DNA from: a virus
Taxonomy: Duplodnaviria; Caudoviricetes
DNA: 64,000 nt
Virus record (IMG/VR): IMGVR_UViG_3300020577_006271
Location: 64,001-128,000 of that record
Strand: one strand, 5' to 3'
The position numbers were made by a program, and so were the translations under genes. This document shows positions 51,238-62,937 of this stretch, piece by piece (within the stretch, counting starts at the first letter, position 1; every line of letters starts with the position of its first letter). The notes under the pieces were generated by a model. It saw nothing but the letters and a program-made list of their open reading frames with translations. It was not told where the DNA came from and made no database searches.

Positions 51238-51273
51238 AAAAATTTGGTTATTTGAAATATTTTTTGTATATTG
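51238..51273 (+). promoter_or_regulatory. Bacteroidota-type early/middle promoter for the modification operon
   Basis: AAAAATTTGG...TTGTATATTG, TTTG-N20-TA. Confidence 0.7.
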
Positions 51274-51426
51274 TATAAAAATTAGGTTTTCAAGGAAACG
51301 TTGGGTTAAATTCGATGTGGATTATTGGCATATTTACTAAAGAACAATTATGCAACATCCATGATATCATTGTATATAGGATTTCGTGTTATGATAATAT
51401 ACAAACAAAATTAAATTTAATTTTAA

Positions 51427-52014
51427 ATGAAGCAACTAGAAAAAGAAAAGATAATCAATAAAGCAGCTAAAGAATATGCCAAATTCATGGATGTGTTATT
51501 ACCTGACTGGAAAGAAGATAAAAATATGGTTGATACTCCAATGCGAGTCTCCCGTGCATTTGTTGAAGATATATTCTCGGGATTATATGATGACAATTTT
51601 AAAATCACAGCCTTTCCAAATGATGGTTATGATGGATTGGTGATGCAATGTAATATACCAGTCAAGAGTATATGCTCACACCACCACCAGATAATCGATG
51701 GCATAGCTCATGTCGCATATATACCCGGCGATACAGTAATAGGATTATCCAAATTAAATAGAACGGTTGATTATTTTGCCAGGAGACCACAATTACAAGA
51801 AACATTAACTATTCAAATTCATGATTTTATAAGCAATATTTGTATAGGAAATGCTGGTGTAGCTGTAATTATTAAAGCGAAGCATGCATGTTGTTCACAC
51901 CGAGGGATCAAACACGATTCTGATATGCAAACGATTAAAATATCAGGTGCATTTAAAGATGATTCCAAAGTTAGAGAAGAATTTTACAGCTTGATTCAAA
52001 ATGCTAAAAGGTAA
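51427..52014 (+). CDS. folE: GTP cyclohydrolase I
   Basis: DTPMRV, SICSHH, G.AHVAYIP, IGLSKLNR, RRPQLQE, H.C..HRG. Confidence 0.95.
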   Translation: MKQLEKEKIINKAAKEYAKFMDVLLPDWKEDKNMVDTPMRVSRAFVEDIFSGLYDDNFKITAFPNDGYDGLVMQCNIPVKSICSHHHQIIDGIAHVAYIPGDTVIGLSKLNRTVDYFARRPQLQETLTIQIHDFISNICIGNAGVAVIIKAKHACCSHRGIKHDSDMQTIKISGAFKDDSKVREEFYSLIQNAKR

Positions 52015-52021
52015 TACGACA

Positions 52022-52108
52022 ATGATGACATCCAAAATATCAGGGGCTTTTAAGACACAACCTGAAGTCAGGGAAGAATTTTATAATTTTATTAAAAGAT
52101 TGAAATGA
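52022..52108 (+). pseudogene. Orphan C-terminus of a second folE allele
   Basis: MMTSKISGAFKTQPEVREEFYNFIKRLK versus the folE end MQTIKISGAFKDDSKVREEFYSLIQNAKR; its TGA overlaps the ino1 ATG. Confidence 0.85.
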
Positions 52109-53265
52109 TAAATGTAGGAATAATTGGATTAGGCAACTGCGCAAGTTCACTAATCCAAGGCATAGAATATTATACAATGTATCCAGAAAAACTTTCCGGA
52201 TTAATGATGAAAGATATTGGTGGGTATTTACCAAAGGATATTAATGTTGTAGCGGCATTTGATATTGATAGTCGTAAGATTGGAAAACCAATCAAAGATG
52301 CAATTTGGGAGAAGCCTAATTGTACTATACAACTTTACAAAGATGTTAAAAACATGACTGTAATTGAAAAAGCTCCGGTTTTAGATGGTTATGCTAATAT
52401 TATGGATGCATATCCGGAGTCAGATAGATTCTTAGTAACAGAAGAACTAAGAAATAATACAGATTTGGGCCGTAGTATAGCATTGGATACAGATTATATC
52501 TTGGGTTTAAAAACAAGAATTATACATGTATTAAAAGAAAATAATGTAACCATATTAATTAACTATTTACCGGTTGGGTCACAAATAGCAACTGAATGGT
52601 GGGCCGAAATCTGCTTAGAAACGGGTATATCTTTTTTAAACTGTATTCCGGTTTTTATAGCATCTAATCCAGTTTGGGATCAAAAATTCAAAGACAAAAA
52701 CATTCCAATTATTGGAGATGATATGAAAAGTGAATTCGGTGCATCGATAGTATCACAAATTTTGCAAGAATTAGCTTTTGCGCGTGGACATCACGTTAAG
52801 TGTCATATTCAACGAAATATTGGAGGTAATACAGATTTTTTAAATATGGAAGATAAATCCAGATTAAAATCTAAAAAAATATCAAAGGAAAATGTTATAA
52901 GATCCCAAAATGACATTCGTGGTATTTCAACCGAAAACACTTTTTTACATGCCGGACCTTCGGAATATATTTCGTATTTTAAAGATAATAAAGTTGCTAA
53001 TTTTCACATAGAATTGGAAGGATTTATGGGTAGCCCAGTAATTTTAGATGCTCAATTATCAGTTCAAGATTCTCCAAATTCTGCTGGAGTAGTAATCGAT
53101 GCTATTAGATATTTATCCGTGGCTCGAGAAATGGGTTTAAAGGGCTCATTAAAAGGCGCCAGCGCTTGGACGCAAAAAACCCCTCCAATTCAAATGACAA
53201 GCGAGCAAGCGCAAAAAGAATGCCAAACATTAGCTAATAGAGATAAAAGCTTTTTTACAAAATGA
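52105..53265 (+). CDS. ino1: myo-Inositol-1-phosphate synthase
   Basis: GLGNCASSLIQG, VAAFDID.RK.G, NYLPVGS, NCIPVFIAS, GDDMKS, NIGGNTDFLNM, SKKISK, DSPNSAGVVIDAIR. Confidence 0.95.
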   Translation: MINVGIIGLGNCASSLIQGIEYYTMYPEKLSGLMMKDIGGYLPKDINVVAAFDIDSRKIGKPIKDAIWEKPNCTIQLYKDVKNMTVIEKAPVLDGYANIMDAYPESDRFLVTEELRNNTDLGRSIALDTDYILGLKTRIIHVLKENNVTILINYLPVGSQIATEWWAEICLETGISFLNCIPVFIASNPVWDQKFKDKNIPIIGDDMKSEFGASIVSQILQELAFARGHHVKCHIQRNIGGNTDFLNMEDKSRLKSKKISKENVIRSQNDIRGISTENTFLHAGPSEYISYFKDNKVANFHIELEGFMGSPVILDAQLSVQDSPNSAGVVIDAIRYLSVAREMGLKGSLKGASAWTQKTPPIQMTSEQAQKECQTLANRDKSFFTK

Positions 53266-53885
53266 TCAAGATAGATTCGAATATAAACATGAGAGAATAT
53301 GGATCGCATTATTTTAATGGATTTTTAGATTTTCTTATGTTTGTTAATAAAAATATAAGAACTTGTAACACCATTATCGAAATAGGATCATTTAAAGGAG
53401 AATATAGTTCATTAATCTTGAAGCATATTCATGGTAATCCAATATTATATTGTGTTGATCCATGGAATGACATGCCGGATAATTCGGATATTTTACAAGG
53501 CATAAATTTTTCAAATATAGAAAAGATTTTTGACGAGACATTAATTAGTTTTAACAATTTTAAGAAAATAAAATCCACATCAGACGAATTTATTCAAAGT
53601 AATACAATTAATTCGGTTGATTTGGTTTATATAGATGGATTACACACTTATGATCAAGTTAAAAGGGATATAGAAAACTATTTACCATTAATTAAATCCG
53701 GTGGAATTTTAGCAGGTCACGATTATCATATACCAATACCGCATGAAGAATATCCCTTTTATTATGACATCGATAAACAACAAAAAATACGACATCAAGT
53801 TGGATTAGCAGTCGATGAACTTTTATTAAAAGATTATAAAATTTATACATTCGAAGATACATCATGGGCAATAATAAAAAAATAA
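53262..53885 (+). CDS. Class I SAM-dependent methyltransferase (Methyltransf_24-like)
   Basis: IEIGSFKG.S, YCVDPW, DLVYIDGLHTY..V..DI, GGILAGHDY. Confidence 0.9.
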   Translation: MIKIDSNINMREYGSHYFNGFLDFLMFVNKNIRTCNTIIEIGSFKGEYSSLILKHIHGNPILYCVDPWNDMPDNSDILQGINFSNIEKIFDETLISFNNFKKIKSTSDEFIQSNTINSVDLVYIDGLHTYDQVKRDIENYLPLIKSGGILAGHDYHIPIPHEEYPFYYDIDKQQKIRHQVGLAVDELLLKDYKIYTFEDTSWAIIKK

Positions 53886-54691
53886 TCATTTTATATAGTG
53901 GCGGATTAGATTCATTTATATTATATCATTGGACTAAACAAAAATATCCAAGTTACGAAATTAAATGTATTTATTATGATTATGGAAATCCTGTTTGCCA
54001 AACTGAAATTTCTAAATTACCTGAATTTGTAATAGTTAAAAATATAGAGTGGTTCGACAATTCAGCAGAAAAATTAGTTGGCAAAAAAACAGAAAATCAT
54101 AAAGGAAACATTTACATTCCAGGTAGAAATATGGTCTTCGCTGTGTTGGCAGCTGCACAAGAATTACCAGATTATATTTTTATGGGTGGACTGTATGAAG
54201 AAGCACACCAGGCAGCAACAGACAAGAATGTTGAATTCATACATAAATTTAATGAATTAGTGAATTATGTATTATCTCCGTTTAAAGATAAAATTTTATT
54301 AGTATTCCCATTTGTCGACGAATCATACACTAAATCAATGGTAATAGATTGGGCGTTAACTAATGGGATAAGCCCTGATATATTAGGAAAATTATACAGC
54401 TGCTTTAATTATTCGGAAAATGGATTACCTTGTGGAGAATGCCATTCTTGTATGCGTAGTTTTTCTTTCTTTTACAAAAAAGGAATCCCAATTAAATTTA
54501 ATCGACACCCATTTTTTGAATCGAATTTTGGTATTAATTATTTACAACGATCAATCCAAATGTTAGAAGCATCACATTATGACCGAATTTTACTTCAAGA
54601 TTTAGATTATGGTGCAATTAAATCATTTTTAATTGATTACAATATTGATCAATTATTAGTTGATAGAATTGATAAATTTTTAGAAATATGA
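53864..54691 (+). CDS. queC: QueC-like 7-cyano-7-deazaguanine synthase
   Basis: PP-loop LYSGGLDS, YDYG, YIPGRN, SC...PCGECHSC. Confidence 0.85.
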   Translation: MGNNKKIIILYSGGLDSFILYHWTKQKYPSYEIKCIYYDYGNPVCQTEISKLPEFVIVKNIEWFDNSAEKLVGKKTENHKGNIYIPGRNMVFAVLAAAQELPDYIFMGGLYEEAHQAATDKNVEFIHKFNELVNYVLSPFKDKILLVFPFVDESYTKSMVIDWALTNGISPDILGKLYSCFNYSENGLPCGECHSCMRSFSFFYKKGIPIKFNRHPFFESNFGINYLQRSIQMLEASHYDRILLQDLDYGAIKSFLIDYNIDQLLVDRIDKFLEI

Positions 54692-55029
54692 ATATTGGCT
54701 TTGATTTCGATGGAACAATAACTAAAAATCCATGGTTATTTAAACAATTAATTGACATGTTTAGATCAGTTAATGGTGTCAATACCGTATATATTATTTC
54801 TGGAACATCCGACAACGACAGATATAAATTATTAAATGAATTAAAATCTTTTAATATTACGGTAAATCCAGAAAATATTATTACTAAGCCAGAATCGGGA
54901 AATATTTCCGATGTAACAATGTGGAAATATAATTTAGTAGACGAATTAAAAATTCGATTATATATCGAAAATCGAGAAGAAACAGCAATAAAACTATCAG
55001 AATTATGCACAATTTTTAAAATTATTTAA
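54688..55029 (+). CDS. Small capless HAD-superfamily phosphatase
   Basis: IGFDFDGTI motif I, IISG motif II, motif III Lys, YIEN motif IV. Confidence 0.75.
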   Translation: MNIGFDFDGTITKNPWLFKQLIDMFRSVNGVNTVYIISGTSDNDRYKLLNELKSFNITVNPENIITKPESGNISDVTMWKYNLVDELKIRLYIENREETAIKLSELCTIFKII

Positions 55030-56234
55030 TGAAAAATTTTACATTTATCCCATCCATTTCGGCTGGATACTTATATAACGGAATTGTTACTGATAAAACA
55101 TTCTTGAATGGGATGCCTTACGATTATTATAATTACGAAGGAAAATTTAATTACCCATATTTTCTTATAACTGCAGGAAATTTTTACAAAAAAGATGTTT
55201 ACGAAAAATCGAAATTCTTCAAGAATGAGAACGTTGAAATATTTGGCGACTCGGGTGGATATCAAATAGCAACTGGGACATTAAAATGGAATAAGGATAT
55301 ACGGCATACAATAATGACTTGGCTGGAAAGAAATTCAACCGTTGCCGCAAATCTTGATATACCACCAAGATCAAAATTATTTTCAACGACGGACGCAAGA
55401 GAAATATCGTATGACAATTTCAAGTATTTTCATGAAAATCAGTCGGGTAAAACTAAATTTTTGAATGTGTTACAAGGTAAAGATTTAATTTCATATTCAT
55501 CCTGGTATAATATGGTTAAAGAATTTACTGACTTTGAAGGATGGTGCATTGGCAACGTATCTACTATATCAAACATTATTACGTCAATATATGTGTTACT
55601 GAAGAACAAAGAGCATCTAAGATCTAAGGTAATACATTTTCTTGGTGCATCTAGTCCGGATTCATTTGTAATTATGTCACATTTTCAAAATGCGTTAAAC
55701 AATGTTGGATTAGACGTACAAATATTTTCCGATTCGTCAAGTCCTAACTCAGCAAGATTTGGATATTACTATACTGACATTGATTATAAGACTTTAGCCT
55801 GGAGGAATTTTCATATTCCATACATACGAGAAGAAAATATCGAAAATTTAGACAAATATAAATCAGAAATTTATAAATCAGATTCAAATTCGATATTGCC
55901 ATTGTACACAGATTTCGACAAAGAAATATTTATAAATTTATTCAACCACCAAGATTTACTTGATTATAATTCTAGATTTTGTAGTGCCTTAATATTAAGA
56001 AATATTCATGTCTATAAAGCACAAGTGGAAATTATCAATGAATTTGTCAAAGCTCCCGAATATTATAGAAAACATATTTTTCCAGAGAGTATTGCTAAAT
56101 TAGGGTCAATGATAAACGAAATGGTAGAATCAACATCATCACAAATGATTGACTCAATATATAATAAATATTCTCCAATACTCAACAAATATAAAAGCTC
56201 AACCACGGCTGGAACCAATCAACAACTGTTTTAA
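55029..56234 (+). CDS. dpdA: TGT-family transglycosylase, probably DNA 7-deazaguanine inserting (DpdA-like)
   Basis: GDSGGYQ, NLDIPP, NVLQG, GWCIG, IHFLG, SDSSS; between queC and polB. Confidence 0.75.
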   Translation: MKNFTFIPSISAGYLYNGIVTDKTFLNGMPYDYYNYEGKFNYPYFLITAGNFYKKDVYEKSKFFKNENVEIFGDSGGYQIATGTLKWNKDIRHTIMTWLERNSTVAANLDIPPRSKLFSTTDAREISYDNFKYFHENQSGKTKFLNVLQGKDLISYSSWYNMVKEFTDFEGWCIGNVSTISNIITSIYVLLKNKEHLRSKVIHFLGASSPDSFVIMSHFQNALNNVGLDVQIFSDSSSPNSARFGYYYTDIDYKTLAWRNFHIPYIREENIENLDKYKSEIYKSDSNSILPLYTDFDKEIFINLFNHQDLLDYNSRFCSALILRNIHVYKAQVEIINEFVKAPEYYRKHIFPESIAKLGSMINEMVESTSSQMIDSIYNKYSPILNKYKSSTTAGTNQQLF

Positions 56235-56235
56235 T

Positions 56236-58071
56236 ATGTATAGCAGAATCCATTACGATCGTAATAAAAACCTAATTCATTTATGGGATGATGTAAACGG
56301 GTATTCGAATTTTGAATATCAGCCATATGCATATATCAGCGATGTTAACGGTGATAAAAAGACAATGTCTGGCATTCCAGTAAAACGCACCACTCGGTGG
56401 AATTCTACCGCTGAAGAGTTAGGTATTATATTTGAGGCAGACGTTCAACCAGAGATGCGTACATTAATTGACTTATATGGAAATTCAGATGAAATTTCAA
56501 AACGATTAATCCTTTACGCTGACATTGAGGTTAGAAAAAATGAAAAATATTCAACGGTTGCTGAAGCTGCGAATGAAATCAATGCAATAACTTATATCAC
56601 TAATGAAACTGATATTTATACAGTTTTACTCTTGGATGAAAATAGTGCACCGAGAAACTATAGAACAACGGTACAAATTCCAAAAACAGAAATATTTGTA
56701 GAATGCAATATTAAAGTTTTTAATTCCGAAACAACGCTTTTAAAAGCATTTTTAAAGGATTTAAGAGAAATTGATCCTGTAATATTTACTGGCTGGAATA
56801 CGGATCAATATGACATTCCGTATTTGCACAACCGTATTGAAAAGGTTTTAGGTTATGAATATAAATTATTACTAAGTCCAATATCAATAGTTAGAACCAA
56901 CGAATATGCAGGGAAAACTGAAATTAAAATAGCTGGGTTATATAATTTAGATTATTTAGATTTATACAAGAAATTCACTTATTCAGAAGAACCATCATAT
57001 AAATTAGATTCGATTGCTATTAAAGAATTGGGAATTGGTAAGGTTGAATATGAAGGATCGCTGGATGATTTATGGCGGCAAAATCCAGATAAATTTATTA
57101 GTTATGCAGTGATTGATGTCTGGTTAATAAAACAACTTGACAAAAAATTAGATTTCATCGACATTGCTTGTGGTATTTGCCATAAAGGGCATGTACCATA
57201 CTCGGACATTCAATTTACATCTAAATACCTTGAAGGTGCGTTGTTAACACATTTGCATAGAAATAATTTAGTTGCAATTTCAACAGAGAAAACTAAACAT
57301 CATGATACTGCTGAAGGTGCGTATGTCAAAGAACCAATTCCAGGAATTTATCGTTGGATTTATGATTTAGACTTGACGTCATTATACCCTTGGAATATTA
57401 TAAACTTAAATATTTCCCCAGAAACTAAATTTGGATTTATTGTAGACTGGAATCAGGAGAAGTTTTTAAAGGATATAGACCGTTCATGGAAATTGCTTAA
57501 AAAGGTAGATACATCAACGTATAAATTTTTCAAAGATCTTGATGAAATTAATGAAAATGAATTCAATTTTGCCACAACAATAGAATTCAAACAATTTATA
57601 ATTGATAATAATTTATCGATTTCATCATCTGGTATTTTATATTCATTGGATACCCCTGGATTGATTCCAACTGTTTTGAAAATTTGGTTTGCGGAACGGA
57701 CAGAATATTCAAATCTTATGAAGGAATATGGACTATCTGGAGATTCAGAAACGGAACGATATTATGATAAAAAACAATTAGTTACAAAAATTCTGTTAAA
57801 TTCGCTATATGGTGTATTGTTGTTACCAACATTTCGTTTCTATGATCGTCAAAATGGGGAAAGCGTGACAACTGTTGGACAGTCTGTGATAAAATGGGCA
57901 ACCGCAATAGCAGATAAGTTTTATCACAAAGAATTAGCAGAATTTAATTGTATTTATCGACTTGAAATGGAAAACGGTACGGTTAAAAGTTTACATGGAT
58001 TCGATTTGATAAATACAAATTCTGGGAAAAAATATGTTTTCCAATTAACTCCTGATGATGAATTAATATAA
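56236..58071 (+). CDS. Family B DNA polymerase, N-terminal subunit (exonuclease, motifs A and B)
   Basis: ADIE, TGWN...YDIPY, SYKLD, DLDLTSLYP, NISPET, KILLNSLYG; start set at ATG 56236. Confidence 0.95.
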   Translation: MYSRIHYDRNKNLIHLWDDVNGYSNFEYQPYAYISDVNGDKKTMSGIPVKRTTRWNSTAEELGIIFEADVQPEMRTLIDLYGNSDEISKRLILYADIEVRKNEKYSTVAEAANEINAITYITNETDIYTVLLLDENSAPRNYRTTVQIPKTEIFVECNIKVFNSETTLLKAFLKDLREIDPVIFTGWNTDQYDIPYLHNRIEKVLGYEYKLLLSPISIVRTNEYAGKTEIKIAGLYNLDYLDLYKKFTYSEEPSYKLDSIAIKELGIGKVEYEGSLDDLWRQNPDKFISYAVIDVWLIKQLDKKLDFIDIACGICHKGHVPYSDIQFTSKYLEGALLTHLHRNNLVAISTEKTKHHDTAEGAYVKEPIPGIYRWIYDLDLTSLYPWNIINLNISPETKFGFIVDWNQEKFLKDIDRSWKLLKKVDTSTYKFFKDLDEINENEFNFATTIEFKQFIIDNNLSISSSGILYSLDTPGLIPTVLKIWFAERTEYSNLMKEYGLSGDSETERYYDKKQLVTKILLNSLYGVLLLPTFRFYDRQNGESVTTVGQSVIKWATAIADKFYHKELAEFNCIYRLEMENGTVKSLHGFDLINTNSGKKYVFQLTPDDELI

Positions 58072-58073
58072 AT

Positions 58074-58373
58074 ATGAAAGTTGAAAAAACCAAAGAAAGC
58101 GTAATATTAGAAATTCTTTTTGACGCTGGAGTCAAATTTGACAAAAATGATTTTGATCTATATAAAACCATATTCGATAATGGTTATTATTTTAAAACTT
58201 TATTAATGGAACAAACGTTATCAAAATTATTAAGATTCAAGGAAGAAATTCTAGAACAAAGAAAAATGTTAACCGAACCAAGACCAGGAATATACTTAAA
58301 ATATAATAACAGATTAGGTTGGAAAATTGTAATATATTGGTATAATAATAACATAGAAACAATTAATACATGA
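58074..58373 (+). CDS. Hypothetical protein inserted between the polB halves
   Basis: 99-aa ORF, ATGA-coupled to polB-C; no nuclease motif recognised. Confidence 0.6.
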   Translation: MKVEKTKESVILEILFDAGVKFDKNDFDLYKTIFDNGYYFKTLLMEQTLSKLLRFKEEILEQRKMLTEPRPGIYLKYNNRLGWKIVIYWYNNNIETINT

Positions 58374-59317
58374 AAATAAAAAGTATCAAGTCGTTGACAA
58401 TCAATACGGAACATATTATATCTTTTTCTATATATACTGATACTGACAGTATATTCTATCCATTGGAACCATTAATGATAGCTAGATATGGGAAACAAAA
58501 TTTCACTGACGAAGAGTTTATAGAAAAAGGGTTACCCTTAATTAATGAAATCCAAAATTATATTAATAAATCATATGATGTATATGCTAAACGATATCAT
58601 AATGTATCTACCCATGGGTGGAATTTGAAACAAGAATTGTTGGCAAGAAGAGGATTCTGGTCGGGAAAGGTAGAAAAACCAAAAAAAGGGCAACTTCCAA
58701 ATTCTATATCTACTGTTACTGGTGTTAAAAAACGCTATGCGCAGTGGATTGTAAATAAAAAGGGGGTTCCTAAAAATTACATGGATGTCAAGGGCCTTGA
58801 ATCAGTTAGATCCAATTATCCTAAAATTTTTAGATCTAAACTTGCCCAGATATTTGAAAAATTATTACATGACTGCACTGAAGACGAAATGAATAATTTT
58901 CTTAGGTCATTTAAAAAACAAATTAAAGAAATTGATATGTGGGATATTATGATCCCAACTTCAGTTAATTCAGTCGAAGATTATTCAACCGGGGTTTTTG
59001 GTTCATATGGAAAAAAGACTCCAGCTCATGTTAAGGCAGCATTAAATTATAATTCTGTCATTGATTTACTAAAATTGGAAGTACCTAAATTAACCGATGG
59101 TGATAAAATATTATGGTGTTATTTAACAAATAATCCATATTATTTTGATGCTATAGCAATTTCAAGAGAATCAAATCCTCCAGAATTAATAAATTTTGTC
59201 GAAAAACACATTGATCGAAATGCTGTCTTTGAAAATTTATTCTTAAATAAAGTTCAGGGTTATTATTCGTCAATTGGATGGGGAAAAATTCAAATTAATT
59301 CAAACTTTTTCTTCTAA
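58370..59317 (+). CDS. Family B DNA polymerase, C-terminal subunit (motif C, thumb)
   Basis: YTDTDS, KQE, KKRYA, KGLESVRS, TPAHVKAALNYN, GDKI. Confidence 0.95.
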   Translation: MKIKSIKSLTINTEHIISFSIYTDTDSIFYPLEPLMIARYGKQNFTDEEFIEKGLPLINEIQNYINKSYDVYAKRYHNVSTHGWNLKQELLARRGFWSGKVEKPKKGQLPNSISTVTGVKKRYAQWIVNKKGVPKNYMDVKGLESVRSNYPKIFRSKLAQIFEKLLHDCTEDEMNNFLRSFKKQIKEIDMWDIMIPTSVNSVEDYSTGVFGSYGKKTPAHVKAALNYNSVIDLLKLEVPKLTDGDKILWCYLTNNPYYFDAIAISRESNPPELINFVEKHIDRNAVFENLFLNKVQGYYSSIGWGKIQINSNFFF

Positions 59318-59351
59318 AAATTTGGAAATGTGAAAAAAATTTTGTATATTG
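59316..59351 (+). promoter_or_regulatory. Bacteroidota-type early/middle promoter
   Basis: AAAAATTTGGAAATGTGAAAAAAATTTTGTATATTG, TTTG-N20-TA. Confidence 0.7.
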
Positions 59352-59367
59352 TATAAACATTAAAAAA

Positions 59368-60099
59368 ATGCTAAAAGATAATATTTTAAATTTCATAAAC
59401 AAATATAATCTCGACTCAAGTAGCAGTCGGGGAGATACACCGGTGATAATAACTGCTTCTGATTCTAAATTAGCAGTACAATTTAAATCTGAAGATGCAA
59501 CTATTTTAGGCAAGATCGTCGCCCAAAACATTGATTTGCCTGATGGGAAATACGGGGTGTTCAATACTAGCACACTGCTTGCATTATGTAAATTGATGCA
59601 AAATGAATTTGACATTAATGTATTGCACGAAGGTGATGCTGCAAATATACCAACCAAATTGATATTATCTGATAGTTCATATCGTGCAGAATTTATATTA
59701 GCAGATTTAGATATTATACCTTCAGCCGAATCAAGGTTGTTAGCTCCAGAATATGATGTAGTGATTGAAATTACACCATCTATTATAGACAGATACGTCA
59801 AATCATTAGCTGCCTTGCCCGCTCAATTTGTAGCATTCCGTTCCAAAAAAGGAAGATTGGAATTAATAATTAACTATTCCAGCCAAACATCTAATACGAT
59901 TATTTTAGATTTAGGTCCAGACAATTCCAATGCGTTGATTGCGCCATTAGTATTTAATGCTTCCCGGTTAAAGGATATATTGTTAGCTAATAAAGATTTA
60001 ATTGATGGTAAGATATCCTTCTGCCAAAATTTTGCAGAGCTGATTTTTAAAAGTGAAACCATAATGGCAAAATATTACATTTCATCGATAATTGATTAA
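59368..60099 (+). CDS. Sliding clamp (gp45-like)
   Basis: 243 aa, alternating beta/alpha, GVFNTSTL and LADL.II motifs; between polB and clamp loader. Confidence 0.7.
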   Translation: MLKDNILNFINKYNLDSSSSRGDTPVIITASDSKLAVQFKSEDATILGKIVAQNIDLPDGKYGVFNTSTLLALCKLMQNEFDINVLHEGDAANIPTKLILSDSSYRAEFILADLDIIPSAESRLLAPEYDVVIEITPSIIDRYVKSLAALPAQFVAFRSKKGRLELIINYSSQTSNTIILDLGPDNSNALIAPLVFNASRLKDILLANKDLIDGKISFCQNFAELIFKSETIMAKYYISSIID

Positions 60100-60862
60100 C
60101 ATGAATACTAAAATAGAAGAAATCTTAGCTGAATCAGCAGCGTATGGGATGCGTAATGATGTTATTTCGTTAGCAATAAATTTGTCTAATGTTTATAAAA
60201 ATTTCATGAAAACTAATTTTCCATCAAATGCAATATCTGAAAATTCCGAATCTTTTTACGAATTGGCTTATGATCTCCTAATAGGCGAAGAAGATGAATC
60301 TAATGAATTCGCAGTGCATGATCATGACAGTAATATTAAACCATACGGAAATGAATTAAATCTGTATTGTGGTCCAGAAGAATATCTAGAACGTCTGGAT
60401 TTTGTTGCCACTGAAATTTCAATGAAAGATGAAAGTATGAATTGGAAACAAGCTCAAACTGGTAAACCGTTGTTTGAGAATGTATTTATACTCACCGACG
60501 TTTGGTCTATGTTCACTTATTATGAACTATGTATATCAATGAATTTGTATGATTCTCCTAGACTAATCATTGCACCTGATTTGATTACTAATCTACCTGA
60601 AATACCAGCCGGTTCTAACATATATGTTTTGTCATATCACAGGACCGATAAAAGTATAGGAATCATCGATGAATTATTAAAATTTGGAATACATCCTTCG
60701 GACATAACCAGTATAGAAGTTTTGGGCCAACACACCATGACTCCATGCCAAACTATACCTTTGATTGCTATAACAGACAATAATATACTAATTGATTGCT
60801 ATGGATTAGGGAAACCAACTAAAGATGGAAAATACTCAGAAACATTAGGTATTTATTATTAA
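60092..60862 (+). CDS. Hypothetical protein (possible degenerate phosphoribosyltransferase C-terminus)
   Basis: C-terminal CYGL recalls the PRTase GYGLD motif; no canonical PRPP loop. Confidence 0.45.
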   Translation: MINMNTKIEEILAESAAYGMRNDVISLAINLSNVYKNFMKTNFPSNAISENSESFYELAYDLLIGEEDESNEFAVHDHDSNIKPYGNELNLYCGPEEYLERLDFVATEISMKDESMNWKQAQTGKPLFENVFILTDVWSMFTYYELCISMNLYDSPRLIIAPDLITNLPEIPAGSNIYVLSYHRTDKSIGIIDELLKFGIHPSDITSIEVLGQHTMTPCQTIPLIAITDNNILIDCYGLGKPTKDGKYSETLGIYY

Positions 60863-61050: not shown

Positions 61051-61180
61051 TAACGATTATGTATTTGTACAATTTAATGATCAGCTTAAATCGGAGTCGA
61101 TAGTTAGATTAAACCGCCACGGTATTATATCAGCAAAATTGTCTTCACAACAATTTCAAATTTTAAAATTTAAAAAATGA
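60968..61180 (+). CDS. Hypothetical protein
   Basis: ATGA-coupled to queD. Confidence 0.45.
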   Translation: MRFKRSILYDVERKKDKFTNLMYVSIHNNDYVFVQFNDQLKSESIVRLNRHGIISAKLSSQQFQILKFKK

Positions 61181-61608
61181 CATATACAATTTCAAAAACA
61201 TTTTTGGGCTATCCATTCGCCCATCGCCAGCCTAAACATGACGGACACTGTTCTTTAATTCATGGACATAACTGGGACTTCACCATTGAGTTATCGGCTC
61301 CCGAAGGACAACTCGACGAAAATGATTTCGTTTATGATTTCGGCAAATTTGCTTGGTTGAAAACTTGGTTCACGGATATGTTTGACCATACATGTGTAAT
61401 TAATGCGACTGACCCTCTAATTGAAAAATTTACTACAATGAATTCTGAAGGTCTAATTAATTTGAAAATTGTTCCGTCTGCATCAGCTGAAGGATTAGCA
61501 AAACTGATTTATGACCATATATCTAAGCAAGATTTAGGTACAGATGTTACATTAGTATCGGTTACAGTTCATGAGGATTATAAAAACCAAGCTAAATATT
61601 CAATTTAA
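61177..61608 (+). CDS. queD: 6-carboxy-5,6,7,8-tetrahydropterin synthase
   Basis: AHRQ..H.GHC..IHGHNW, VYDFG, FDH, SAEGLA. Confidence 0.9.
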   Translation: MTYTISKTFLGYPFAHRQPKHDGHCSLIHGHNWDFTIELSAPEGQLDENDFVYDFGKFAWLKTWFTDMFDHTCVINATDPLIEKFTTMNSEGLINLKIVPSASAEGLAKLIYDHISKQDLGTDVTLVSVTVHEDYKNQAKYSI

Positions 61609-61664
61609 CACGTCAAATCTCGACGGTAGTCAATTTAAATTAAATAAACATACAAATACATATC

Positions 61665-61871
61665 ATGTCAGATCAAGCCTTTTATAACGTTAGAACTCAA
61701 CGAGAAGTTGAACAACCAAATGGTAAAATCAAAAAAGTTTCGGAACAATATCTGGTTAAAGCGGTATCTGTAACAGATGCCGAAGCTACAATAACAAACC
61801 ATTTGAAAGATGAACCATTTGACTGGTTTGTAAAATCAGTATCGGAGACCAAAATTCTAGAAGTTGTATAA
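61665..61871 (+). CDS. DUF4494-like protein
   Basis: NGKIKKVSEQYLVKAVSVTDAEA...VSETKILEV, a Bacteroidota-associated pattern. Confidence 0.7.
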   Translation: MSDQAFYNVRTQREVEQPNGKIKKVSEQYLVKAVSVTDAEATITNHLKDEPFDWFVKSVSETKILEVV

Positions 61872-62937
61872 ACGCAACACCATTTATTTTATTGATAACC
61901 AAGTTCCAATAAGTAGGATCAATTCTGAGTGGCAGTTAATAAGTGCCATATTATATGAGATCTTTAAAAATATTGGACTTGGTGTCAAAATAATTAGTAA
62001 TGAGTATAATGTACAATCGTTAGATTATGCTCAGCGTATAATTTATTCTGCTGAGATTAATAAAAAGTTATTTGATCTTATCGGATTTATTAAGCACCGT
62101 GATATATTAATATTTACCGACGCTAGATCTTCTTTGATTCATGATGTCTATGAATATTTCATCCTTAAGGGGATTAGACCATATATTATTGGAATCTGGC
62201 ATGACGGATATTGGAATGGAAGTTCCATCTATAAAAAAATGTACCAAAAACGAAATATTTCATATTCGCCAATTGAATATGAACGAATGTTGGCAAAGAT
62301 ATTTGATTTAAATCTAATCACAAACCCAGTACAATATTCGTATTTCAAAACCCAGGTTTCAGCTAAATCAAAATTTGTCAATTTGCCATTTGCCTTGTTA
62401 AAGGATGCGTACGCAGTAACGGAATTATCAGATATATATTCCACGAAACTGGATACAATCTTAATTAACAGCAACGATATATTAGGCAAGGATACGGTAC
62501 TGAAAAACAAGTATGATATCATGGTCAAGGAATTATCAGAATTTGATATTTTTGATATATCCGTCATAAAGACGCATAATTTAAAGGTCAATCTTCCTGC
62601 CTTTGGCAAAAGTAAAATTATGATAAATCTAAATTCAATGACAACTTCTCCGGTAGAAATATTTCATTGTCTCCAATTAGGAATTTTAACAATTACTGTC
62701 GAAAATAAATATTTAACAGATATTGGATATCCTGAAGAATTGTTGTTAGAAAAACATGAAGTTAATACCGAGAAATTATATAAATTTATTCGGTATTGCA
62801 GCACAATCAACGAAAAGTTGCAAATTGCCAACGAACGTTATACAGAATTGTTAGAACAAACTAAACAAATATTAGAGCCTGAATATTCAGCCGAACCATT
62901 TTTAAAATTAATCAAAAATGTCAAAAATAGAAAATGA
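61864..62937 (+). CDS. Putative divergent glycosyltransferase (GT-B-like)
   Basis: Size, DILIFTDA, GIWH.G and a C-terminal EIF..LQLG..TI segment; near queD. Weak call. Confidence 0.4.
   Translation: MYKRNTIYFIDNQVPISRINSEWQLISAILYEIFKNIGLGVKIISNEYNVQSLDYAQRIIYSAEINKKLFDLIGFIKHRDILIFTDARSSLIHDVYEYFILKGIRPYIIGIWHDGYWNGSSIYKKMYQKRNISYSPIEYERMLAKIFDLNLITNPVQYSYFKTQVSAKSKFVNLPFALLKDAYAVTELSDIYSTKLDTILINSNDILGKDTVLKNKYDIMVKELSEFDIFDISVIKTHNLKVNLPAFGKSKIMINLNSMTTSPVEIFHCLQLGILTITVENKYLTDIGYPEELLLEKHEVNTEKLYKFIRYCSTINEKLQIANERYTELLEQTKQILEPEYSAEPFLKLIKNVKNRK

What the first reader, a model, noticed from the sequence alone, without database searches (positions are those of the whole stretch)
57949..58432. 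Split PolB whose new termini look like the non-catalytic middle of a split intein (possible Hint-derived docking clasp)
Seen: polB is broken between motif B and motif C. The N-half ends with about 40 non-polymerase residues, CIYRLEMENGTVKSLHGFDLINTNSGKKYVFQLTPDDELI. The C-half begins MKIKSIKSL, 12 residues before YTDTDS. Established: split-intein N-fragments end in a pattern like vY.l..enG..i..TxxH...t..G......L...D.l, C-fragments begin MkI.si..l, and these oppositely charged parts drive association. Here TxxH is replaced by HGFD, block A, block F and the terminal HN are absent, and the break is not at the usual D|TDS site. Inference: splicing is impossible, but one Hint lobe was kept as a heterodimerisation module holding a two-subunit polymerase together.
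Basis: partly seen in the sequence, partly recalled or inferred. Interest (0 to 1): 0.8.

Follow-up and report, generated by a model that had tools for sequence, protein, structure and literature searches.

The report
Dead half-intein clasp on split polymerase
This phage makes its DNA polymerase as two proteins, and the two broken ends carry the shrunken, splicing-dead middle part of a split intein that most likely only clips the halves together, which gives sequence evidence for an origin of such 'tails' that was proposed in 2011 but not shown.

Summary
The T4-type polB (gp43) is broken in the loop before the motif C strand. The N-half (56236-58071) ends in a 39-residue tail. The C-half (58370-59317) starts with MKIKSIK plus a short linker. 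An orphan 99-codon ORF between them is a relic of a Vsr-like homing endonuclease gene.

The Hint reading first looked unsupported: Pfam, PDB, a 1.84-billion-protein profile search and the relatives' own PolB intein gave nothing. A motif scan of viral contigs then found real split inteins in phage helicase genes. Their N-fragment ends match the tail without gaps (16-18 of 38-39 identical; hhalign probability 96.9, E 1.3e-10). Their C-fragments start MKIKAMR or MKLIKRT.

Only intein positions 57-94 and IntC 1-11 survive. Blocks A, B, F and G are gone, so splicing is excluded.

The tail and head are conserved, persist after endonuclease loss, occur in at least three polB lineages, and lie in the predicted interface. 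Docking is inferred, not shown.

Element-derived tails on fragmented genes are known (NrdA, gene 39/60). The scan noted similar dead half-intein clasps on other DNA.

The parts
56236..58071 (+). PolB (gp43) N-half, 611 aa from ATG 56236 (the ORF is open from TTG 56149): N-terminal and exonuclease domains, motif A, fingers with motif B, and the palm helix up to about residue 567
   Evidence: identical to P0001; RB69 gp43 4 to about 590, Z 27
57952..58068 (+). Tail, residues 573-611. It is homologous to positions 57-94 of a split-intein N-fragment (the strand YELEMEDG through DEIV). HGFD stands where block B TGNH should be.
   Evidence: AF2 gives four short strands (573-577, 583-587, 591-594, 597-600) with pLDDT about 76-82.
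58074..58373 (+). ORF99, an orphan. Its last 18 residues are 78% identical to the C-terminus of a MucR-zinc-finger/DUF559 (Vsr-like) homing endonuclease that sits just upstream of the C-half in locus L004. Read as a relic of that gene.
58319..58346 (+). Promoter-like site (TTGGAA, 16 nt, TATAAT with TG) inside the 54 nt shared with L004, just upstream of the C-half start. A possible element-borne promoter for the C-half.
   Evidence: This is a consensus match only; the count in the region is not above shuffles.
58063..58409 (.). Polymorphic cassette. Near-identical phages in other samples depart from the window at 58062 and rejoin at 58410, with about 1.3 kb (a GIY-YIG endonuclease gene and a different head and linker) in place of these 347 bases.
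58370..58402 (+). Head, residues 1-11 (MKIKSIKSLTI). It aligns to the first 11 residues of the split-intein C-fragment. M1 K2 I3 K4 I6 are invariant in the clade.
   Evidence: AF2 gives a strand at 2-9.
58403..58420 (+). Variable linker, residues 12-17, between the head and the polymerase
58421..58450 (+). Motif C strand and catalytic YTDTDS, residues 18-27, supplied by the C-half
58370..59317 (+). PolB C-half, 315 aa: motif C, KKRY region and thumb

Best explanation
This is a 'fractured' T4-type polB. A free-standing homing-endonuclease cassette sits in the loop before the motif C strand, so the polymerase is made as two chains. The N-half carries exonuclease, motif A and motif B. The C-half carries motif C and the thumb.

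The cassette brought, or left behind, the two pieces of a split intein that flank its split site. One piece is the last 38 residues or so of the N-fragment, now the tail of the N-half. The other is the first 11 residues or so of the C-fragment, now the head of the C-half. Together they correspond to about one pseudo-symmetric unit of the HINT fold.

All catalytic parts are gone: the block A nucleophile, TxxH, blocks F and G, and the terminal Asn with its +1 nucleophile. No peptide bond can therefore be made.

The acidic strand YEIEFEDG and the basic strand MKIKSIK are the strands that start fragment 'capture' in real split inteins. Here they most likely act as a non-covalent clasp that helps the two halves rebuild the palm. 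In this window the endonuclease itself has decayed to a 99-codon relic.

Shown: the split, the homology, the loss of catalytic blocks, the conservation and the cassette polymorphism. Inferred: the docking function and the route of origin.
For: Split and context.

Conservation of the tail and head:
- They are conserved across the split clade and absent from unsplit relatives.
- A tail-profile search of 1.84 billion proteins found no unsplit PolB carrying the tail.

Homology to real split inteins:
- BLASTP gives 17/39, 16/39 and 18/38 identities without gaps, with E 2e-7, 4e-8 and 1e-9 per pair.
- Outside the 8-residue seed motif, the fixed-register score is 41-48. The maximum over 80,230 natural 30-residue windows is 31.
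- hhalign of the tail profile against the L024+L025 intein gives probability 96.9 and E 1.3e-10, with tail 1-38 on intein 57-94. Tail plus head aligns across the split site.
- The comparators are true inteins. They reach 35.5 and 32.1 bits on Pfam Hint (cut-off 29.7), their C-parts match Intein_splicing 122-155, and L024 matches solved inteins.
- All hits sit at the very end of N-parts of other fractured genes, whose C-parts start MK[IL].

Selection:
- MKIKSIK is kept through synonymous changes, including AGT/TCA for Ser.
- pN/pS of the tail is 0.23-0.60.
- The tail and head are retained where the endonuclease gene is lost (this window, and L029).

Mobility:
- The tail type needs at least 4 changes on the N-extein tree.
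- The inserts vary.
- The cassette polymorphism has fixed break points in other samples.

Co-fold:
- ipSAE is 0.83 against 0.01 for the best of 3 controls. That mark was reached by 58 of 80 solved complexes and 2 of 110 mismatched pairs.
- The runs agree in at least 94% of contacts and the partner's pLDDT is at least 85.
- The interface lists tail residues 569-581, 585, 587-589, 593, 595-597, 599-606 and 608-611, and C-half residues 1-39.
- Halves of a split gene can pass by likeness to solved PolB structures.

Literature:
- In gp41-1 the charge network lies between the strand at the C-end of IntN and the first strand of IntC, and residues 60-110 form one C2 unit (10.1101/546465).
- Tails are essential in Aeh1 NrdA (PMC3045599).
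Against: - Standard library searches do not see Hint in the tail. Pfam at E up to 10 gives only weak Tudor_2. The PDB profile search is led by the KDM4A Tudor motif YEVNFDDGS.
- The PolB-c (Aes123-type) intein of related phages gives no local hhalign signal.
- The head alone is weak: hhalign P 0.052, and it is not above decoys against the PolB intein.
- A 32-37-bit match would not be significant against all of IMG/VR without the fixed register and the shared context.
- Fractures at the same loop exist with no tail or head (L016, and the tail-less N-half end in L017). A clasp may therefore not be strictly needed.
- In Aeh1 NrdA the tails were not needed for heterodimer formation, only for activity (PMC3045599).
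- No coordinates of the co-fold were available, so direct tail-to-head pairing and a Hint-like topology were not checked.
Confidence: 0.7

Rival explanations
1. The tail and head are intein-derived but are now passengers without function. They would be leftovers of the cassette's origin that persist only because they carry the stop, the start and the expression signals. The halves would assemble through the polymerase body alone.
For: Fractures without extensions occur at the same loop with the same GIY-YIG endonuclease family (L016; also the tail-less N-half end in L017). The end of the tail varies in length among members. pN/pS of the tail is higher than that of the polymerase body.
Against: MKIK.I is invariant at 36-43% overall identity and is kept through synonymous changes. 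pN/pS of the tail is below 1 in all six pairs. The tail is predicted to fold (pLDDT about 80) and to lie in the interface. The tail and head are kept after the endonuclease gene is lost.
Confidence: 0.2
2. There is no Hint ancestry. The tail would be an unrelated small beta-meander (SH3- or Tudor-like Y.V.F.DG hairpin), or a decayed duplicate of the polymerase's own motif C segment, and the match to split inteins would be convergence.
For: The best library hits are Tudor motifs. MAFFT aligns YEIEMEDGS with YCIYGDTDS at the same distance from the preceding helix, and DDELI with TDEELI. The atlas feature search of the tail lists PolB fragments at 0.81, a level that a third of shuffled proteins reach.
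Against: The motif C duplicate idea scores no better than shuffles or decoys. The Tudor match covers only 9-11 residues. The intein match runs the full 38-39 residues without gaps, ends at the same place relative to the stop, and comes with the same MK[IL] start on the partner.
Confidence: 0.06
3. The two halves are joined after all, by an unrecognised RNA or protein splicing step or by recoding across the 300-base gap.
For: Relatives use true split inteins nine residues downstream. A related sub-clade has a candidate translational hop in motif C.
Against: No ribozyme family was found. The three ORFs lie in three frames with proper stops and starts. There is no conserved nucleophile at the start of the tail, no TxxH, no block F or G, and no terminal Asn followed by Ser, Thr or Cys. 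The inserts range from 0 to about 3.3 kb among relatives.
Confidence: 0.03

Closest known systems
Fractured genes: split intein halves with a free-standing homing endonuclease gene between them (Dassa et al. 2009, PMC2677866). This includes the Aes123 PolB1 split intein with a VSR endonuclease (GenBank JN377899; PMC11923092).
   Same: A replication gene of a T4-like phage is broken into adjacent N and C genes. GIY-YIG or Vsr-like endonuclease genes lie between them in relatives. The new termini are homologous to split-intein parts. Related phages carry the true PolB split intein at DTD|S.
   Different: Only about 49 of about 145 intein positions remain and every catalytic block is missing, so the product stays in two chains. 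The break is nine residues upstream of the intein site, in a loop. The remnant comes from another intein family (helicase type), not the PolB-c intein.
Aeh1 NrdA-a/NrdA-b: tails created by the mobE insertion act as interaction domains (Crona et al. 2011, PMC3045599)
   Same: An endonuclease-fragmented essential enzyme carries a C-terminal tail and an N-terminal tail that unsplit homologues lack. A charge-based interaction was proposed. The authors speculated that the tails might be remnants of a degenerate split intein.
   Different: There the origin was speculation with no sequence evidence, and the function was tested biochemically. Here the intein origin has sequence support and the function is untested.
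MobA element of T4 genes 39/60 with element-encoded CTE and NTE (Manning and Atkins, bioRxiv 10.1101/2022.08.31.505936)
   Same: A mobile endonuclease element always adds an in-frame C-terminal extension to ORF1 and an N-terminal extension to ORF2. The extensions are kept after the endonuclease is lost. The endonuclease can be replaced by GIY-YIG or VSR types. There were multiple independent insertions.
   Different: No Hint homology is reported for the CTE and NTE. That element carries a 50-nt bypass cassette, which this window does not. A related sub-clade here has a 5-nt insert in motif C.
Split gp43 of Aeromonas phages 25 and 44RR (Petrov, Ratnayaka and Karam 2010, as cited in PMC2988022)
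   Same: A T4-type PolB is encoded as two cistrons, with a seg-like endonuclease gene in one case. The two products co-purify and are active.
   Different: The break point is different (upstream of motif B, as in the Aes123 gp43A/B1 record). No intein-derived termini are described.
Natural split inteins gp41-1 and Npu DnaE ('capture and collapse')
   Same: The retained strands are the ones that carry the inter-fragment charge network. The polarity is acidic on the N side and basic on the C side, as in Npu DnaE and in the L024 and L025 inteins.
   Different: There is no first HINT unit and no catalytic blocks, so at most a 'capture' step without splicing.

Membership tests
Hint/intein superfamily (by descent) | Significant sequence similarity to a bona fide Hint domain | tested here: met
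   hhalign of the tails against the L024+L025 split intein gives probability 96.9 and E 1.3e-10 over 38 columns. BLASTP gives 41-47% identity without gaps. The fixed-register score outside the seed motif exceeds all 80,230 decoy windows. The comparators pass the Pfam Hint cut-off.
Hint/intein superfamily (by descent) | Direct match to the Pfam Hint, Hint_2 or Intein_splicing models | tested here: not met
   No such family appears at E up to 1 for the window tail or at E up to 10 for eight tails. The fragment is only 38-40 residues long.
Functional (splicing) split intein | Block A with a Cys, Ser or Ala nucleophile at intein position 1 | tested here: not met
   The tail starts at intein position 56-57, and positions 1-55 are absent. 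The residue at the polymerase/tail junction varies among K, N, C, G, R and S.
Functional (splicing) split intein | Block B TxxH | tested here: not met
   TGNH of L024 and L025 aligns with HGFD. The clade shows HGFD, NGFD, NWNE and NGSD.
Functional (splicing) split intein | Blocks F and G with a terminal Asn followed by Ser, Thr or Cys | tested here: not met
   The head covers only IntC 1-11. A 5-8-residue variable linker then joins the motif C strand. IntC 12-35 is absent.
Fractured gene in the sense of Dassa et al. 2009 | A conserved enzyme gene broken into adjacent parts with a free-standing endonuclease gene between them | tested here: met
   GIY-YIG/NUMOD3 and MucR-ZnF/DUF559 genes lie between the halves in L001, L002, L004, L005, L006 and L013. 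This window keeps only a relic.
Endonuclease-fragmented gene with element-derived interaction tails (NrdA-a/b, gene 39/60 type) | C- and N-terminal extensions absent from unsplit homologues, conserved among split alleles, and travelling with the insert | tested here: met
   The tail type is polyphyletic on the N-extein tree. The head changes together with the cassette in near-identical phages.
Endonuclease-fragmented gene with element-derived interaction tails (NrdA-a/b, gene 39/60 type) | Tails required for assembly or activity | not testable with these tools
   Only a co-fold was possible: ipSAE 0.83 against 0.01 for the best control, with the tail and head in the interface.
Family B DNA polymerase, T4 gp43 type | Exonuclease domain and motifs A and B, then motif C (DTD) and the thumb | tested here: met
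   Pfam; RB69 gp43 at Z 27; tblastn to gp43 of many T4-like phages; YTDTDS intact in the C-half.

The most novel reading that the evidence does not exclude
The tail, endonuclease and head form one portable cassette: a splicing-dead half-HINT 'clasp' that travels with free-standing homing endonucleases. It would let them invade essential genes at sites where no intein or intron could sit, because the docking peptides, stop, promoter and start arrive ready-made. The same degenerate module (AGFR in place of TxxH; head MKIRSIKP) at the break of a gp41/DnaB-type helicase gene (L019-L023) and its spread over at least three polB lineages would be traces of this. It would be a third way, beside RNA and protein splicing, for mobile elements to neutralise gene disruption, and it would have evolved from protein splicing.
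Probability: 0.4. Interest if true: 0.85.

Novelty: new variant of a known kind. Interest (0 to 1): 0.72.

Why it matters
How the pieces of endonuclease-fragmented phage enzymes find each other is an open question. [quoted passage not shown] In 2011 Crona et al. showed that such tails are essential in NrdA and guessed that they might be degenerate inteins, but had no sequence evidence.

This case supplies that evidence for a replicative polymerase. The tails are one HINT unit of a known split-intein family with all chemistry removed. That makes the idea testable in three ways:
- delete or swap the clasp;
- graft it onto reporters;
- compare it with the fractures at the same loop that lack a tail.

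It also shows protein splicing decaying into plain non-covalent assembly. It offers a very small (about 38 + 11 residues), naturally evolved, non-splicing heterodimerisation pair as a possible protein-engineering tool.

Tried and rejected
1. Group I intron or other RNA: the Rfam evalue scan of 55500-60500 gave only two chance-level hits.

2. Nucleotide search of the phage collection found only a 119-base PolB match. A tblastn of the 44-aa tail against phage records found nothing.

3. hhalign (local) of the tails, the heads, and tail plus head against the relatives' PolB-c split intein was not above column shuffles: 15, 40 and 16 of 100 reached the observed score. This was the wrong intein family. 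Global hhalign, mean pairwise scores and decoy tests gave only a weak signal for its block B region. The head against its IntC gave none.

4. The idea that the tail is a decayed duplicate of the motif C segment: MAFFT aligns them in order, but there is no support in hhalign local or global mode, in pairwise scores or in decoys.

5. A profile search of 1.84 billion proteins with the tail returned only its own family plus repeat proteins. A 32-37-bit relative cannot surface at that database size.

6. The PDB profile search and Pfam gave Tudor-type short-motif hits, judged to be a shared hairpin motif.

7. The atlas feature search of the tail gave PolB fragments at 0.81, which is not informative.

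8. ORF99 has no relatives of similar length. PHROGs gave only a weak hit of unknown function.

9. Fold search with the whole N-half model returned only PolB chains and did not cover the tail.

The second, with A6, added one polB locus (L029) and re-found L019-type loci.

11. L019 C-part residues 1-152 had no PDB match. Its architecture stays unresolved.

12. Laid contigs: ORF99 (58074-58311) had no cover in the four runs laid. This says nothing about absence. The one RNA-library contig shows presence, not transcription.
Full report
WHAT IS THERE

Three tightly packed ORFs on the + strand cover the finding.
- The PolB N-half ends at 58071. The ORF is open from TTG 56149, and ATG 56236 gives the 611-aa product that public gene calls also use (P0001).
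- A 99-codon ORF runs 58074-58373. It starts two bases after the N-half stop.
- The PolB C-half runs 58370-59317. Its ATG overlaps the ORF99 stop (ATGA).

Pfam puts DNA_pol_B_exo1 and profile positions 14-203 of DNA_pol_B in the N-half, and positions 280-390 in the C-half. The AF2 model of the N-half matches RB69 gp43 residues 4 to about 590 at Z 27. The C-half aligns to gp43 of hundreds of T4-like phages from about residue 11-22 onwards.

The break lies after the palm helix that follows motif B and before the strand that leads into YTDTDS. No ribozyme family is present. The neighbours are a 7-deazaguanine operon upstream and the sliding clamp downstream. The same order is seen in all relatives fetched.

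THE TAIL AND HEAD ARE REAL, CONSERVED FEATURES

About a dozen split N-halves from other metagenomes (49-75% identical overall) end in the same tail. Its consensus is YEIEFEDGS.K..HGFD.I.T..GKKYVF.L...DELI. Their C-halves start MKIK.I, followed by a variable linker and then F.IYTDTDS.

About fifty unsplit relatives go straight from the helix to the motif C strand. A profile search of 1.84 billion proteins found the tail only in this family and never inside an unsplit PolB.

M1 K2 I3 K4 I6 are invariant in C-halves that are otherwise 36-43% identical. Between the window and a near-identical phage (L001), codons 2-7 differ at four codons, all synonymous, including AGT against TCA for Ser. Six of the next eight codons change the residue. 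pN/pS of the tail is 0.23-0.60, against 0.07-0.31 for the 60 codons before it.

THE GENE IS FRACTURED BY A HOMING-ENDONUCLEASE CASSETTE

In relatives the halves are separated by one to five genes. These include:
- a SegE-like GIY-YIG/NUMOD3 endonuclease gene right after the tail;
- often a MucR-zinc-finger/DUF559 (Vsr-like) endonuclease gene that overlaps the C-half start.

ORF99 has no relatives of its own length. Its last 18 residues are 78% identical to the end of that Vsr-like protein in L004. The 54 nt that encode them are shared with L004 and hold a promoter-like site. ORF99 is therefore read as a relic.

Contigs from three other studies follow the window to 58062 and rejoin at 58410, with 1321 other letters in between. 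L001 shows that this alternative insert is a GIY-YIG gene plus a 60-codon ORF.

On a tree of the N-extein, the tail type falls in at least three places with unsplit sisters; the well-supported branches force at least 4 changes (a quick IQ-TREE search with SH-aLRT support only). The cassette therefore moves, or is co-converted, between polB alleles.

The loop is a hot spot:
- L016 carries a fracture at the same place with a GIY-YIG gene and no tail or head.
- The N-half of L017 ends at the same place without a tail and is followed by a Vsr-like gene, after which the contig ends.
- Other relatives carry the cysteine-less PolB split intein at DTD|S with a Vsr-like gene between the parts. This is the arrangement annotated for Aeromonas phage Aes123 and for PA5oct.

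IS IT HINT-DERIVED?

The first tests said no.
- Pfam gave no Hint or intein family at E up to 10, only weak Tudor_2.
- The PDB profile search was led by the KDM4A Tudor motif.
- Local hhalign against the relatives' own PolB intein was no better than shuffled columns.
- The alternative that the tail is a decayed copy of the motif C segment, suggested by a MAFFT alignment, also failed every test.
- Only global alignments and decoy rankings hinted at the block B region of that intein.

The turn came from scanning viral contigs for the tail's 8-residue motif. Apart from the window's own lineage, all ten confirmed hits (three groups) are the very ends of N-parts of other fractured genes.

In L024 and L025-L028 (DEAD/ResIII helicases) the N-part carries a complete IntN. 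It starts CFAAGT or CIAGSS right after DE-C and ends ...MYELEMEDGTFLHVTGNHKVKTTSGWKQVQDLSTNDEIV... The C-part starts MKIKAMRIIEKP... or MKLIKRTLIEKP... and runs on through blocks F and G to N|C.

These comparators are bona fide inteins. They reach 35.5 and 32.1 bits on Pfam Hint (cut-off 29.7). Their C-parts match Intein_splicing 122-155. L024 IntN matches solved BIL, DnaB, RecA and DnaE inteins.

The window tail aligns to them without a gap over 39 residues, with 17 and 16 identities (E 2e-7 and 4e-8 for the single comparisons). TGNH lies exactly over HGFD.

Because the candidates were chosen by the motif, I scored only the 30 residues outside it, in the fixed register. The scores are 41-48. 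Among 80,230 natural windows from this and related phages the mean is -28, the sd is 12 and the maximum is 31.

Profile against profile, the tails match intein positions 57-94 with probability 96.9 and E 1.3e-10. Tail plus head aligns across the split site, with the head on IntC 1-11. The head alone is weak (P 0.052).

By the description of the gp41-1 structure, residues 60-110 form the second pseudo-C2 unit of the HINT fold. The inter-fragment charge network lies between the strand at the C-end of IntN and the first strand of IntC (10.1101/546465). These are the parts retained here, with the same polarity as in L024 and L025: acidic on the N side and basic on the C side.

WHAT IS MISSING

Intein positions 1-55 (block A and the first unit), TxxH, and IntC 12-35 (blocks F and G, with the terminal Asn and the +1 nucleophile) are all absent. 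The junction residues are not conserved. Protein splicing is excluded on sequence grounds.

HOW IT LIKELY WORKS

The two chains must rebuild the palm. The C-half supplies the motif C hairpin next to the motif A strands of the N-half.

A co-fold of N-half residues 340-611 with the C-half scored ipSAE 0.83, against 0.01 for the best of three controls. That mark was reached by 58 of 80 solved complexes and 2 of 110 mismatched pairs. The runs agree in at least 94% of contacts and the partner's pLDDT is at least 85. The confident interface lists nearly the whole tail and C-half residues 1-39.

Halves of a split gene can pass by likeness to solved PolB structures, and no coordinates were returned. 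The co-fold therefore supports docking but does not show it.

AF2 on the single chains gives the tail four short strands at pLDDT about 80, and the head a strand at 2-9.

My reading is that the clasp keeps the 'capture' step of split-intein assembly (PMC11766414) without collapse or chemistry. It raises the affinity or the correct register of the two halves.

Two facts caution that the clasp may tune assembly rather than be required for it. Tail-less fractures exist at the same loop (L016, L017). In Aeh1 NrdA the tails were needed for activity but not for heterodimer formation (PMC3045599).

ORIGIN (INFERENCE)

The remnant resembles a helicase intein family, not the PolB-c intein nine residues downstream, and it sits in a loop. 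The simplest route is therefore that an endonuclease residing at the split site of such an intein moved to polB. It would have carried its flanks with it: about 39 codons plus the stop on one side, and the start plus about 11 codons on the other. This is comparable to the MobA element, which always adds a C-terminal and an N-terminal extension (10.1101/2022.08.31.505936).

L019-L023 fit a portable cassette. There the same degenerate module (AGFR, head MKIRSIKP, and a Vsr-like gene between) sits at the break of a gp41/DnaB-type helicase gene. L019's N-part end matches intein positions 46-96 at probability 96.5. Its C-part, which also ends an intein-like stretch in HN|S, was not resolved.

COMPARISON AND NOVELTY

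Several things are already known:
- split gp43 and endonuclease-fractured genes (PMC2677866, PMC2988022);
- tails as interaction domains, shown for NrdA, where a degenerate-intein origin was suggested without evidence (PMC3045599);
- conserved extensions of the MobA element.

What is new here is sequence-level evidence that such tails are one HINT unit of an identifiable split-intein family. It occurs in a replicative PolB, at a non-intein site, and is spread across lineages.

Earlier notes of this scan report similar 'dead half-intein clasps' on other DNA (dnaE, polA and a three-piece PolB). I did not test those.

I rate this a new variant of a known kind, with interest 0.72.

Noticed in passing
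L006:6640-6720 (same in L007) and L029:3614-3700: In the P0007/P0012 sub-clade the C-half has a 5-nt insert inside motif C, between the codons for T and D of YTDTDS. L006 reads ACG TGA CA GAT TCC and L029 reads ACC TGA CT GAC TCT. Removing the 5 nt restores YTDTDSIF. Both read as a Thr codon, then UGA, then a second Thr codon that starts 5 nt after the first (ACG to ACA; ACC to ACT). That is the signature of a peptidyl-tRNA hop over a stop. The third bases differ but both codons stay Thr. It may protect the site from the endonuclease, like the gene 60 bypass. It could instead mean a three-piece or dead polymerase.
   Followed up: partly
L029:3600-3620: In this relative the N-half stop overlaps the head ATG (GTATGA) and no gene lies between the halves. 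The half-intein is interrupted only by a stop/start at the canonical endonuclease insertion site.
   Followed up: partly
L019:3320-6341 (also L020-L023, L030, L031): A gp41/DnaB-type helicase gene is broken right after the Walker A GTNVGK. The N-part ends in the same TxxH-less tail (LYELEMEDGTVRQLAGFRKV...EEDEI), a DUF559 Vsr-like endonuclease gene follows, and the C-part starts MKIRSIKP. About 135 further non-helicase residues then end in ...LVSHN|S before the helicase resumes. This may be the clasp cassette inserted into a host intein, or an odd split intein. It was not resolved.
   Followed up: partly
L016:3560-4620 and L017:6600-6973: The same polB loop is fractured by a GIY-YIG gene (L016) with no tail and only MTKNNA before the motif C strand. 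In L017 the N-half also ends there without a tail and a Vsr-like gene follows, but the contig ends before any C-half. L016 is a natural control for what the clasp adds.
   Followed up: partly
P0010 (nested in the tail clade): A 651-aa product follows PolB up to just after motif B (…LLLPTFR) and then continues with about 190 unrelated residues. This is another rearrangement in the same stretch of the gene.
   Followed up: no
window 51238-56234 and 61177-62937: A 7-deazaguanine cluster (folE, queC, a DpdA/TGT-like gene, queD) flanks polB here and in all relatives fetched, in some with an inositol-1-phosphate synthase gene. Earlier readers of this genome noted it.
   Followed up: no
That would be a second fractured gene in this phage. 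I did not check it.
   Followed up: no
window 57700-58700, by public runs: Near-identical sequence occurs in wastewater, activated-sludge, bioreactor, river and freshwater metagenomes from about a dozen studies. Only one run holds the whole stretch with this particular insert.
   Followed up: partly
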